Below are positions 13,205-48,500 of a stretch of DNA of 64,000 nt, piece after piece. The notes under the pieces are model-generated. The model ran no database searches, was not told the origin of the DNA, and was given only the letters and a program-made list of their open reading frames with translations. Each line of letters begins with the position of its first letter. Positions within the stretch are counted from its first letter, which is position 1. The stretch lies in assembly GCF_009914755.1 (NCBI RefSeq), contig NC_060932.1. One strand, 5' to 3'. Both the position numbers and the translations under genes were made by a program. This stretch comes from the human T2T-CHM13v2.0 reference genome, Homo sapiens.

Positions 13205-16200
13205 TTTTTTTTTAAAGTTTTTTTTTCTTTTATTATTATACTTTAAGTTTTAGGGTACATGTGCACATTGTGCAGGTTAGTTACATATCTATACATGTGC
13301 CATGCTGGTGCGCTGCACCCACTAACTTGTCATCTAGCATTAGGTATATCTCCTAATGCTATCCCTCCCCCTTCCCCCCACCCCACAACAGTCCCCAGAG
13401 TGTGATGTTCCCCTTCCTGTGTCCATGTGATCTCATTGTTCAATTCCCACCTATGAGTGAGAATATACGGTGTTTGGTTTTTTGTTCTTGCGATAGTTTA
13501 CTGAGAATGATGATTTCCAATTTCATCCATGTTCCTACAAAGGACATGAACTCATCATTTTTTATGGCTGCATAGTATTCCATGGTGTATATGTGCCACA
13601 TTTTCTTAATCCAGTCTATCATTTTTGGACATGTGGGTTGGTTCCAAGTCTTTGCTATTGTGAATAATGCCGCAATAAACATACGTGTGCATGTGTCTTT
13701 ATAGCAGCATGATTTATAGTCCTTTGGGTATATACCCAGTAATGGGATGGCTGGGTCAAATGGTATTTCTAGTTCTAGATCCCTGAGGAATCGCCACACT
13801 GACTTCCACAATGGTTGAACTAGTTCACAGTCCCACCAACAGTGTAAAAGTGTTCCTATTTCTCCACATCCTCTCCAGCACCTGTTGTTTCCTGACTTTT
13901 TAATGATTGCCATTCTAACTGGTGTGAGATGGTATCTCATTGTGGTTTTGATTTGCATTTCTCTGATGGCCAGTGATGATGAGCATTTTTTCATGTGTTT
14001 TTTAGCTGCATAAATGTCTTCTTTTGAGAAGTGTCTGTTCATGTCCTTCGCCCACTTTTTGATGGGGTTGTTTTTTTCTTGTAAATTTGTTTGAGTTCAT
14101 TGTAGATTCTGGATATTAGCCCTTTGTCAGATGAGTAGGTTGCGAAAATTTTCTCCCATTCTGTAGGTTGCCTGTTCACTCTGATGGTAGTTTCTTTTGC
14201 TGTGCAGAAGCTCTTTAGTTTAATTAGATCCCATTTGTCAATTTTGGCTTTTGTTGCCATTGCTTTTGGTGTTTTAGACATGAAGGCCTTGCCCATGCCT
14301 ATGTCCTGAATGGTAATGCCTAGGTTTTCTTCTAGGGTTTTTATGGTTTTAGGTCTAACGTTTAAGTCTTTAATCCATCTTGAATTAATTTTTGTATAAG
14401 GTGTAAGGAAGGGATCCAGTTTCAGCCTTCTACATATGACTAGCCAATTTTCCCAGCACCATTTATTAAATAGGGAATCCTTTCCCCATTGCTTGTTTTT
14501 CTCAGGTTTGTCAAAGATCAGATAGTTGTAGATATGCGGCATTATTTCTAAGGGCTCTGTTCTGTTCCATTGATCTATATCTCTGTTTTGGTACCAGTAC
14601 CATGCTGTTTTGGTTACTGTAGCCTTGTAGTATAGTTTGAAGTCAGGTAGTGTGATGCCTCCAGCTTTGTTCTTTTGGCTTAGGATTGACTTGGCGATGC
14701 GGGCTCTTTTTTGGTTCCATATGAACTTTAAAGTAGTTTTTTCCAATTCTGTGAAGAAAGTCATTGGTAGCTTGATGGGGATGGCATTGAATCTGTAAAT
14801 TACCTTGGGCAGTATGGCCTTTTTCACGATATTGATTCTTCCTACCCATGAGCATGGAATGTTCTTCCATTTGTTTGTATCCTCTTCTATTTTCTTGAGC
14901 AGGGGTTTGTAGTTCTCCTTGAAGAGGTCCTTCACATCCCTTGTAAGTTGGATTCCTAGGTATTTTATTCTCTTTGAAGCAATTGTGAATGGGAGTTCAC
15001 TCATGATTTGGCTCTCTGTTTGTCTGTTGTTGGTGTATAAGAATGCTTGTGATTTTTGCACATTGATTTTGTATCCTGAAACTTTGCTGAAGTTGCTTAT
15101 CAGCTTAAGGAGATTTTGGGCTAAGACAATGGGGTTTTCTAGATATACAATCATGTCATCAGCAGACAGGGACAATTTGACTTCCTCTTTTTCTAATTGA
15201 ATACCCTTGATTTACTTCTCCTGCCTGATTGCCCTGGCCAGAACTTCCAACACTATGTTGAATAGGAGTGGTGAGAGAGGGCATCCCTGTCTTGTGCCAG
15301 TTTTCAAAGGGAATGCTTCCAGTTTTTGCCCATTCAGTATGATATTGGCTGTGGGTTTGTCATAGATAGCTCTTATTATTTTGAAATATATCCCATCAAT
15401 ACCTAATTTATTGAGAGTTTTTAGCATGAAGGGTGGTTGAATTTTGTCAAAGGCCTTTTCTGCATCTAATGAGATAATCATGTGGTTTTTGTCTTTGGCT
15501 CTGTTTATATGCTGGATTACATTTATTGATTTGCATATATTGAACCAGCCTTGCATCCCAGGGATGAAGCCCACTTGATCATGGTGGATAAGCTTTTTGA
15601 TGTGCTGCTGGATTCGGTTTGCCAGTATTTTATTGAGGATTTTTGCATCAATGTTCATCAAGGATATTGGTCTAAAATTCTCTTTTTTGGTTGTGTCTCT
15701 GCCCGGCTTTGGTATCAGAATGATGCTGGCCTCATAAAATGAGTTAGGGAGGATTCCCTCTTTTTCTATTGATTGGAATAGTTTCAGAAGGAATGGTACC
15801 AGTTCCTCCTTGTACCTCTGGTAGAATTAGGCTGTGAATCTGTCTGGTCCTGGACTCTTTTTGGTTGGTAAGCTATTGATTATTGCCACAATTTCAGATC
15901 CTGTTATTGGTCTATTCAGAGATTCAACTTCTTCCTGGTTTAGTCCTGGGAGAGTGTATGTGTCGAGGAATTTATCCATTTCTTCTAGATTTTCTAGTTT
16001 ATTTGCGTAGAGGTGTTTGTAGTATTCTCGGATGGTAGTTTGTATTTCTGTGGGATCGGTGTTGATATCCCCTTTATCATTTTTTATTGCATCTATTTGA
16101 TTCTTCTCTCTTTTTTTCTTTATTAGTCTTGCTAGCGGTCTATCAATTTTGTTGATCCTTTCAAAAAACCAGCTCCTGGATTCGTTAATTTTTTGAAGGG

Positions 16201-45561: not shown

Positions 45562-48500
45562 ATGACAGGATCAAATTCACACATAACAATATTAACTTTA
45601 AATGTAAATGGACTAAATGCTCCAATTAAAAGACACAGACTGGCAAGTTGGATAAAGAGTCAAGACCCATCAGTGTGCTGTATTCAGGAAACCCATCTCA
45701 CGTGCAGAGACACACATAGGCTCAAAATAAAAGGATGGAGGAAGATCTACCAAGCAAATGGAAAACAAAAAAAGGCAGGGGTTGCAATCCTAGTCTCTGA
45801 TAAAACAGACGTTAAACCAACAAAGATCAAAAGAGACAAAGAAGGCCATTACATAATGGTAAAGGGATCAATTCAACAAGAAGAGCTAACTATACTAAAT
45901 ATATATGCACCCAATACAGGAGCACCCAGATTCATAAAGCAAGTCCTGAGTGACCTACAAAGAGACTTAGACTCCCACACATTAATAATGGGAGACTTTA
46001 ACACCCCACTGTCAACATTAGACAGATCAACGAGACAGAAAGTCAACAAGGATACCCAGGAATTTAACTCATCTCCGCACCAAGCGGACCTAATAGACAT
46101 CTACAGAACTCTCCATCCCAAATCAACAGAATATACGTTTTTTTCAGCACCACACCACACCTATTCCAAAATTGACCACATAGTTGGAAGTAAAGCTCTC
46201 CTCAGCAAATGTAAAAGAACAGAAATTATAACAAACTATCTCTCAGACCACAGTGCAATCAAACTAGAATTCAAGATTAAGAATCTCACTCAAAGCCGCT
46301 CAACTACATGGAAACTGAACAACCTGCTCCTGAATGACTACTGGGTACATAACGAAATGAAGGCAGAAATAAAGATGTTCTTTGAAACCAACGAGAACAA
46401 AGACACAACATACCAGAATCTCTGGGACGCATTCAAAGCAGTGTGTAGAGGGAAATTTATAGCACTAAATGCCCACAAGAGAAAGCAGGAAAGATCCAAA
46501 ATTGACACCCTAACATCACAATTAAAAGAACTAGAAAAGCCAGAGCAAACACATTCAAAAGCTAGCAGAAGGCAAGAAATAACTAAAATCAGAGCAGAAC
46601 TGAAGGAAATAGAGACACAAAAAACCCTTCAAAAAATCAATGAATCCAGGAGCTGGTTTTTTGAAAGGATCAACAAAATTGATAGACCGCTAGCAAGACT
46701 AACAAAGAAAAAAAGAGAGGAAAATCAAATCGACACAATAAAAAATGATAAAGGGGATATCACCACCGATCCCACAGAAATACAAACTACCATCAGAGAA
46801 TACTACAAACACCTCTATGCAAATAAACTAGAAAATCTAGAAGAAATGGATACATTCCTTGACACATACACTCTCCCAAGACTAAACCAGGAAGAAGTTG
46901 AATCTCTGAATAGACCAATAACAGGAGCTGAAATTGTGGCAATAATCAATAGTTTACCAACGAAAAAGAGTCCAGGACCAGATGGATTCACAGCCGAATT
47001 CTACCAGAGGTACAAGGAGGAACTAGTACCATTCCTTCTGAAACTATTCCAATCAATAGAAAAAGAGGGAATCCTCCCTAACTCATTTTAGGAGGCCAGC
47101 ATCATTCTGATACCAAAGCCGGGCAGAGACACAACCAAAAAGAAGAATTTTAGACCAATATCCTTGATGAACATTGATGCAAAAATCCTCAATAAAATAC
47201 TGGCAAACCGAATCCAGCAGCACATCAAAAAGCTTATCCACCATGATCAAGTGGGCTTCATCCCTGGGATGCAAGGCTGGTTCAATATACAGAAATCAAT
47301 AAATGTAATCCAGCATATAAACAGAGCCAAAGACAAAAACCACATGATTATCTCAATAGATGCAGAAAAAGCCTTTGACAAAATTCAACAACCCTTCATG
47401 CTAAAAACTCTCAATAAATTAGGTATTGATGGGACGTATTTCAAAATAATAAGAGCTATCTATGACAAACCCACAGCCAATATCATACTGAATGGGCAAA
47501 AACTGGAAGCATTCCCTTTGAAAACTGGCACAAGATAGGGATGCCCTCTCTCACTGCTGCTATTCAACATAGTGTTGGAAGTTCTGGCCAGGGCAATCAG
47601 GCAGGAGAAGGAAATAAAGGGTATTCAATTAGGAAAAGAGGAAGTCAAACTGTCCCTGTTTGCAGACGACATGATTGTTTATCTAGAAAACCCCATTGTC
47701 TCAGCCCAAAATCTCCTTAAGCTGATAAGCAACTTCAGCAAAGTCTCAGGATACAAAATCAATGTACAAAAATCACAAGCATTCTTATACACCAACAACA
47801 GACAAACAGAGAGCCAAATCATGAGTGAACTCCCATTCACAATTGCTTCAAAGAGAATAAAATACCTAGGAATCCAACTTACAAGGGATGTGAAGGACCT
47901 CTTCAAGGAGAACTACAAACCACTGCTCAAGGAAATAGAAGAGGATACAAACAAATGGAAGAACATTCCATGCTCATGGGTAGGAAGAATCAATATCGTG
48001 AAAAAGGCCATACTGCCCAAGGTAATTTACAGATTCAATGCCATCCCCATCAAGCTACCAATGACTTTCTTCACAGAATTGGAAAAAACTACTTTAAAGT
48101 TCATACGGAACCAAAAAAGAGCCCGCATCGCCAAGTCAATCCTAAGCCAAAAGAACAAAGCTGGAGGCATCACACTACCTGACTTCAAACTATACTACAA
48201 GGCTACAGTAACCAAAACAGCATGGTACTGGTACCAAAACAGAGATATAGATCAATGGAACAGAACAGAGCCCTCAGAAGTAATGCCGCATACCTACAAC
48301 TATCTGATCTTTGACAAACCTGAGAAAAACAAGCAATGGGGAAAGGATTCCCTATTTAATAAATGGTGCTGGGAAAACTGGCTAGCCATATGTAGAAAGC
48401 TGAAACTGGATCCCTTCCTTACACCTTATACAAAAATCAATTCAAGATGGAGTAAAGATTTAAACGTTAGTCCTAAAACCATAAAAACCCTAGAAGAAAA

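What the first reader, a model, noticed from the sequence alone, without database searches (positions are those of the whole stretch)
14820..48005. The two inverted L1s share at least 7 unusual variants despite different subfamily-type states elsewhere
Seen, same state in both (minus element / plus element): 18823/44001 (ORF0 TAG), 17264/45561 (catcatcATG), 16931/45894 (tatacta), 16709/46116 (ctccatccc), 16284/46541 (KPEQ), 14887/47938 (IEED), 14820/48005 (VKKA). The consensus as I recall it has TCG, cataATG, tatccta, ctccacccc, KQEQ, IKED and VKMA. The elements still differ at subfamily-type sites (LANW/LASW, IDAI/IDTI, MDKF/MDTF, TEWE/TTWE, 5'UTR and 3'UTR). Each keeps its own TSD pair, so there is no net crossover. 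Inference: patchy non-allelic gene conversion across a 24-kb-spaced inverted repeat, with crossovers selected against because they would invert STK3 exon 7.
Basis: partly seen in the sequence, partly recalled or inferred. Interest (0 to 1): 0.75.

Follow-up and report, generated by a model that had tools for sequence, protein, structure and literature searches.

The report
Neighbouring L1 copies swapping short patches
Two jumping-gene (L1) copies of different ages inside the human STK3 gene share seven rare mutations, and a third L1 next door shares others with each, most likely because DNA repair copied short patches between neighbouring copies after they had inserted, a process already known for other repeats.

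Summary
Observation confirmed, with one correction. The two 6-kb L1s (M, minus, 13203-19246; P, plus, 43577-49622; 96.4% identical) share all seven listed bases. Six are rare; 45561 is a common sub-lineage allele (9 of 55 other L1s). An eighth site, 44961, is rare too. For five alleles counted genome-wide (20-83 exact carriers each), only M and P carry all five, so they are neither consensus nor a sub-lineage signature. M belongs to an older lineage and P to a younger one; 40 of 48 diagnostic sites still differ and none is swapped reciprocally. Best explanation: short, one-way, post-insertion gene conversion. The inverted layout is not needed. A third L1, 36 kb beyond P and in P's orientation, shares rare alleles with M (including an ORF2 stop) and with P. 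Elsewhere in the genome, 6 of 8 carrier pairs within 30 kb share the same allele (1.5 expected), mostly in direct orientation. Selection against inverting the STK3 kinase exon is untested. Tract-length tests are weak, and no ape or pangenome data could be seen. It is a known process, shown here for human L1 neighbours.

The parts
13203..19246 (-). M: full-length L1, older lineage (likely L1PA3-type; label recalled, not tested); ORF1 with a frameshift and a stop, ORF2 with 3 stops and a 4-bp deletion
43577..49622 (+). P: full-length L1, younger lineage (likely L1PA2-type; label recalled, not tested); ORF1 open (338 aa), ORF2 with 2 stops
13196..13204 (-). M target-site duplication, 3' copy (9 bp)
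19247..19255 (-). M target-site duplication, 5' copy (9 bp)
43556..43569 (+). P target-site duplication, 5' copy (14 bp)
49651..49664 (+). P target-site duplication, 3' copy (14 bp)
49633..49642 (+). 10-base tag between two A-runs in P's tail, likely a short 3' transduction; source not found
43996..44016 (+). Shared rare allele 44001 (ORF0 stop, CpG site) in a 21-bp identical run; weakest site, may be coincidence (M 18823)
44903..45023 (+). Likely tract: rare 44961 plus old-type 44984 in P, 121-bp identical run; likely M to P
45368..45646 (+). Old-type block in P (45368, 45545, 45561, 45619), same states in M and in the third L1; donor unresolved
45812..45914 (+). Likely tract with rare 45894 (M 16931), 103-bp identical run
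46090..46136 (+). Shared allele 46116 (M 16709), 47-bp run; 2 of 55 in the panel, may be coincidence
46465..46609 (+). Likely tract with rare 46541 (ORF2 codon 327, M 16284), 145-bp identical run
47933..48105 (+). Likely tract with rare 47938 and 48005 (ORF2 codons 793, 815; M 14887, 14820), 173-bp identical run
47291..47292 (+). Double allele of P shared with the third L1 (G000:C8 about 99.7756-99.7817 Mb, outside the window); 12 exact carriers genome-wide
16736..16736 (-). M allele (P coordinate 46089) shared with the third L1; 23 exact of 2147 within one mismatch
15829..15829 (-). M allele (P coordinate 46996), an ORF2 stop at codon 479, shared with the third L1 and with a fourth carrier at G000:C8:99628128
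25160..25297 (-). STK3 exon between M and P: 138 nt, 46 codons, residues about 230-275 of the deposited STK3 kinase chains
   Evidence: hub annotation

Best explanation
M and P are two independent L1 insertions of different lineages that share seven rare alleles, most likely because short stretches were copied one way from one copy into the other after insertion (non-allelic gene conversion), and a third L1 36 kb away likely took part in the same exchange. Shown: independent insertions with their own target-site duplications; different lineages; rare alleles shared only by these neighbours; no reciprocal swap; three-way sharing in both orientations. Inferred: a germ-line break or stalled fork in one L1 is repaired on a nearby L1, giving tracts of tens to a few hundred bases without crossover; at least four such tracts between M and P, as separate events or as patchy repair of one long heteroduplex; direction M to P where it can be read (44961-44984).
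For: Seven shared alleles at 5% or less against 0.45 expected. Five alleles counted genome-wide have 23, 20, 83, 69 and 53 exact carriers including M and P; 47938 is 53 of 6974 within one mismatch. Among 367 carrier elements over eight alleles, M has 7, P 6, the third L1 3, and three unlinked elements 2 each. Of 48 strict lineage-diagnostic sites, 40 are young in P and old in M, 5 old in both, 3 young in both, 0 swapped; diagnostic differences lie between the shared sites. An ORF2 stop allele is shared by M, the third L1 and a fourth carrier 84 kb from M; a stop cannot mark an autonomously active source lineage. Outside this locus 6 of 8 carrier pairs within 3-30 kb share the same allele against 1.5 after shuffling, p about 0.001; 4 of 4 pairs checked (of 12 within 100 kb) have unrelated 3' flanks.
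Against: No long homogenised tract: the longest run of matching polymorphic sites has permutation p 0.059; the sum-of-squares test gives p 0.0016, but M against 6 of 7 young copies is also significant, so it does not single out P. Runs around the shared alleles are no longer than a length-biased null (p 0.18). One unlinked pair in the panel shares 4 doubleton alleles against 5 for M-P, though that pair differs at only 8 lineage sites against 23 for M-P. P's 121-bp old-type haplotype also occurs exactly at one unlinked locus. Only one genome was seen; the panel is biased to close hits; denominators were measured for 3 of 8 alleles; only 1584 bases of the third L1 were read.
Confidence: 0.85

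Rival explanations
1. Common descent: both copies come from a small source lineage, or a recombinant source element, that already carried these alleles.
For: An unlinked panel pair shares 4 doubletons. P's old-type block 45535-45655 has one exact unlinked match, and several of its states occur in P's wider relatives, so that block alone may be inherited.
Against: No unlinked element carries more than two of the eight alleles. M and P differ at 40 of 48 diagnostic sites. One allele shared by M and the third L1 is an ORF2 stop. Descent does not explain why the carriers are neighbours.
Confidence: 0.04
2. Inversion and re-inversion (two crossovers) through the repeats, with conversion at the crossover points.
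For: Same geometry as HsInv0341, an L1PA3 pair of 6.2 kb around 20.8 kb reported to have inverted twice independently (PMC3961182, passages).
Against: Two crossovers at different points swap the stretch between them; 0 of 48 diagnostic sites is swapped. It does not explain sharing with the direct-orientation L1. Two crossovers inside one diagnostic interval cannot be excluded.
Confidence: 0.03
3. Assembly or polishing error, or a change private to the sequenced cell line, copied bases between the repeats.
For: Only one assembly was examined; the shared runs are short.
Against: Private differences remain within 5-20 bases of shared alleles; the copies differ by 3.6% and have unique flanks; the pattern involves three elements and recurs at other loci.
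Confidence: 0.04
4. Independent recurrent mutation at mutable sites.
For: 44001 and 46996 are CpG sites; 44001 and 46116 occur in 1 of 49 and 2 of 55 panel copies; about one coincidence is expected.
Against: Expectation 0.45 against 7 observed; 5 are non-CpG alleles absent from the whole panel. Even at a 2% background over 100 sites P(>=7) is 0.005.
Confidence: 0.02
5. RNA- or cDNA-templated copying: L1 reverse transcriptase switching templates at P's insertion, or repair from STK3 pre-mRNA, which carries M in sense.
For: All copies lie in one transcription unit (hub annotation); cDNA-mediated conversion is described for yeast retrotransposons (PMC6598467, part 2).
Against: It needs many switches; it does not explain sharing between M and the third L1; nothing here tests it.
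Confidence: 0.02

Closest known systems
Non-allelic gene conversion between neighbouring Alu elements (Aleshin and Zhi 2010, as reviewed in PMC6598467 and PMC8230782; the original was not read)
   Same: Detected through non-diagnostic mutations shared by nearby copies; mosaic subfamily states; rate falls with distance.
   Different: Reported range about 10 kb and 300-bp elements; here 6-kb L1s 24 kb, 36 kb and about 60 kb apart, of different lineages.
Gene conversion among LTRs of the human Y chromosome (Trombetta et al. 2016, as reviewed in PMC6598467)
   Same: Mosaic in which different parts of one copy match different donors.
   Different: LTR elements, seen through population polymorphism; here autosomal L1s seen in one genome.
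HsInv0341, recurrent inversion between inverted L1PA3 copies on chr13 (PMC3961182)
   Same: About 6-kb inverted L1 pair around a 21-24 kb spacer, recombining ectopically.
   Different: There the outcome is crossover and no gene is listed as affected; here no crossover product is seen, a kinase exon lies inside, and direct-orientation exchange also occurs.
Recombinant full-length L1s in pangenome assemblies (PMC13192797)
   Same: Full-length L1s that are mosaics of two donor groups (35 of 2267 removed as recombinants).
   Different: Screened out by lineage-level breakpoints; the passages read do not link recombinants to neighbouring donors and do not name STK3. Its locus table could not be opened.

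Membership tests
Non-allelic gene conversion between TE copies | Copies are independent insertions, not a duplication | tested here: met
   Own target-site duplications; alignment ends at the element ends
Non-allelic gene conversion between TE copies | Shared non-diagnostic alleles beyond chance | tested here: met
   7 against 0.45; genome-wide carrier lists
Non-allelic gene conversion between TE copies | Transfer is non-reciprocal, flanks not exchanged | tested here: met
   0 of 48 diagnostic sites swapped
Non-allelic gene conversion between TE copies | Contiguous tracts of unusually high identity | tested here: inconclusive
   Longest-run p 0.059; clustering p 0.0016 but not specific to P; run length p 0.18
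Non-allelic gene conversion between TE copies | Orthologue or source element shows the pre-conversion state | not testable with these tools
   No ape or second human genome held; P's parent not found among 16 candidates fetched of 45 hits
Non-allelic gene conversion between TE copies | Sharing rises with proximity | tested here: met
   3-30 kb p 0.001; 30-100 kb p 0.08-0.13; 100-300 kb p 0.12; 0.3-1 Mb p 0.013; 1-3 Mb p 0.74-0.78; not a smooth decay
L1 sub-lineage signature | Alleles co-occur in many unlinked copies | tested here: not met
   3 unlinked elements carry two alleles and none more, of 367; 45561 alone fits (9 of 55)
L1-mediated recurrent inversion (HsInv0341 type) | Inverted, highly similar L1 pair around a spacer | tested here: met
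   96.4% over 6051 columns, 24.3-kb spacer
L1-mediated recurrent inversion (HsInv0341 type) | Chimeric elements or an inverted allele | tested here: not met
   None in this genome; population alleles could not be examined
L1PA2 / L1PA3 subfamily labels | Match to the subfamily consensus | not testable with these tools
   No repeat library held; younger and older clades were defined from the panel only

The most novel reading that the evidence does not exclude
Full-length human L1s within tens of kilobases of each other routinely trade short patches in either orientation, over several times the range reported for Alu, so L1 clusters behave like small segmental duplications: neighbours pass on stop codons and other mutations, and this blurs subfamily trees and age estimates genome-wide.
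Probability: 0.5. Interest if true: 0.65.

Novelty: new member of a known kind. Interest (0 to 1): 0.45.

Why it matters
It shows ectopic repair between L1s 3-5% diverged and 24-60 kb apart inside a tumour-suppressor-pathway kinase gene (STK3's role is from my own knowledge). The same contacts resolved as crossovers would invert the kinase exon (M-P) or delete or duplicate 36 kb (P and the third L1). If the neighbour signal seen with eight alleles holds genome-wide, 'rare allele shared by neighbours' is a cheap map of past L1-L1 contacts, and a caution for L1 phylogenies and dating that assume copies evolve independently. No effect on STK3 function is shown.

Tried and rejected
Parent of P through its tail tag: 45 hits within one mismatch (34 for the reversed control), 16 fetched, none has a young L1 3' end directly upstream; not found. 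Sawyer-type tract tests and run-length tests: weak or not specific. The 136-bp identity between P and the third L1 is not exceptional, since unlinked copies reach 153-176 bp, so it is not used as proof of donor. Windows where M looks young (3 of 24 rank first) and 3 young-type sites in M do not prove P-to-M transfer, because the same states occur in some old copies. 47697 was dropped as a direction marker (CpG in the young clade). 'STK3' hits in PMC9675761 and PMC4344489 are STK32B references only. circSTK3 is 333 nt from two exons (PMC10009203, passages), which does not match the single 138-nt exon between M and P, so no link is claimed. Literature: 10 searches listed no paper on this locus or on conversion between neighbouring human L1s; most subscription journals are not searched, and the supplements of PMC13192797 (locus table and alignment) could not be read and may list P.
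Full report
Anatomy. The window holds two full-length L1s with their 5' ends facing each other across 24.3 kb: M on the minus strand (13203-19246) and P on the plus strand (43577-49622). They align over 6051 columns with 217 differences, 96.4% identity. Each has its own target-site duplication at both ends, 9 bp for M and 14 bp for P. 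Both are broken: M in ORF1 and ORF2, P by two stops in ORF2. The STK3 exon between them (25160-25297) is 138 nt and encodes residues about 230-275 of the deposited kinase chains.

The observation. All seven paired sites carry the same base in both elements. I built a panel from the best hits to a 1.3-kb piece of each element: 55 other L1s with 4.3 kb each. The shared allele occurs in 1 of 49 (44001), 9 of 55 (45561), 0 of 55 (45894), 2 of 55 (46116), 0 of 55 (46541), 0 of 53 (47938) and 0 of 53 (48005); a further site, 44961, is in 0 of 54. So 45561 is a sub-lineage allele and the rare set is seven sites with 44961 in its place. The first 330 and last 1400 bases, covered by 14 and 16 copies, add none. 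After dropping two presumed duplicate copies, M has 59 and P 34 alleles at 5% or less, and 7 are shared; the 53 panel copies carry 0 (35), 1 (16) or 2 (2) of M's 59, and the expectation scaled to P's load is 0.45. Of 1596 pairs, 1497 share no non-CpG doubleton, 92 one, 3 two, one unlinked pair 4, M-P 5, and two presumed duplicate pairs 14 and 32 (their flanks were not checked).

Not a lineage signature. Exact 20-base searches of the whole genome gave 23 carriers for 46541, 20 for 48005, 83 for 45894, 69 for 44961 and 53 for 47938, M and P included. For 47938 that is 53 of 6974 within one mismatch; the other four have no measured denominator, and 44001, 45561 and 46116 were counted in the panel only. 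Only M and P carry all five, and one other element carries two. P clusters with a younger clade and M with an older one. At 48 strict diagnostic sites, 40 are young in P and old in M, 5 old in both, 3 young in both and none reversed. Diagnostic differences separate the shared alleles into at least four patches (44961, 45894, 46541, 47938-48005), with 44001 and 46116 possibly coincidences. Old-type 44984 lies 23 bases from rare 44961, which points to M as donor there. The names L1PA2 and L1PA3 are recalled and were not tested.

A third partner. A search with P's old-type block found another L1 36.0 kb beyond P, outside the window and in P's orientation. In the 1584 bases I could fetch it differs from P at 83 and from M at 74 positions. 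It shares three panel-absent alleles with M; no panel copy shares more than two with it. Two were counted genome-wide: 46089 is 23 of 2147, and 46996 is at least 100 of 8732 (list cut at 100). 46996 is a stop at ORF2 codon 479 and is also carried at G000:C8:99628128, 84 kb on the other side of M. The third L1 shares a double change at 47291-47292 with P that has 12 exact carriers in the genome. Over all eight alleles, 367 elements carry at least one; M has 7, P 6, the third L1 3 and three unlinked elements 2. P's old-type block 45368-45619 matches both M and the third L1, and once an unlinked locus, so its donor is open.

The same signal elsewhere. Among 366 carriers outside this locus, 6 of 8 pairs 3-30 kb apart carry the same allele against 1.5 after shuffling labels (p about 0.001). 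At 30-100 kb it is 5 clusters against 2.5-2.9 (p 0.08-0.13), at 100-300 kb 5 against 2.7 (p 0.12), at 0.3-1 Mb 15 against 8.5 (p 0.013) and at 1-3 Mb no excess. Ten of the 12 same-allele pairs within 100 kb are in direct orientation. Four of the 12 were checked, and all four have unrelated 3' flanks. One, an inverted pair at C11:49.89-49.91 Mb, shares three more alleles absent from 17 comparison copies in its last 95 bases. This rests on eight alleles chosen from one locus and on one truncated list.

Results against. No long homogenised tract exists. The longest-run test gives p 0.059. The clustering test gives p 0.0016 but is also significant for M against 6 of 7 young copies, while 6 of 77 young-old control pairs reach 0.05. 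Identical runs round the shared alleles (21-173 bp) do not exceed a length-biased null (p 0.18). The tracts are therefore short, old or both. P's parent was not found. No second human or ape genome was available, so assembly error, polymorphism and dates are untested.

Mechanism. Shown: independent insertions, different lineages, neighbour-restricted rare alleles, no reciprocal swap, both orientations. Inferred from general knowledge of homologous repair: a germ-line break in one L1 invades a nearby L1, copies tens to hundreds of bases and resolves without crossover; the few-percent divergence favours that outcome. A crossover between M and P would flip the exon and remove 46 in-frame codons from the kinase domain; one between P and the third L1 would delete or duplicate 36 kb. 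Selection against these is plausible but not needed and not tested.

What is known. Conversion between neighbouring Alus, detected in the same way, is reported within about 10 kb, and mosaic donors are reported for Y-chromosome LTRs (PMC6598467, parts 1-2 of 4 read; PMC8230782, passages). HsInv0341 is an inverted L1PA3 pair of the same geometry that inverts recurrently (PMC3961182, passages). A pangenome L1 study removed 35 of 2267 elements as recombinants (PMC13192797, passages; supplements unreadable). [quoted passage not shown] Ten searches listed nothing on this locus or on neighbour conversion of human L1s.

Verdict. Real and well above chance; most likely short post-insertion gene conversion among neighbouring L1s (0.85). 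It is a new case of a known process, with a lead that the process is general for L1 neighbours. Interest 0.45.

Noticed in passing
G000:C8 about 99775600-99781650 (+), L112-L115: Third, more diverged L1 36 kb beyond P sharing rare alleles with both M and P; only 1584 bases read.
   Followed up: partly
G000:C8:99628128: Fourth carrier of the ORF2 stop allele, 84 kb from M and in M's orientation.
   Followed up: no
G000:C11:49.889-49.909 Mb (L104, L105): Head-to-head L1 pair 7.4 kb apart with unrelated 3' flanks, sharing the 47938 allele and three more unusual bases in an identical 3' end; a likely strongly homogenised inverted pair.
   Followed up: partly
G000:C11:92.0-92.1 Mb, C23:73.4 Mb, C15:97.8 Mb (L106-L111): Direct-orientation neighbours with unrelated 3' flanks that share a rare allele; three carriers within 100 kb on C11.
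   Followed up: partly
L060 (C2:43.67 Mb) and L061 (C10:78.96 Mb): The C2 element's tail carries a short tag matching the 3' flank of the C10 element: a likely parent-daughter pair by 3' transduction.
   Followed up: no
window 49633-49642 and 43570-43573: P has a 10-base tag inside its A-tail and four extra bases before its 5' end; source not found.
   Followed up: partly
window 18837-20036: The RefSeq enhancer overlaps the first 410 bases of M's 5' UTR.
   Followed up: no
window 43577-49622: P carries 34 rare alleles against 8-24 in its closest relatives; selection of best hits may explain part, input from neighbours the rest.
   Followed up: partly
L024 (C3:140.38 Mb) and L027 (C1:65.44 Mb): Unlinked pair sharing 4 doubleton alleles, likely siblings from one source.
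   Followed up: no
window 42821-43146: Old L1 fragment (67% to P's ORF2 start) just upstream of P.
   Followed up: no
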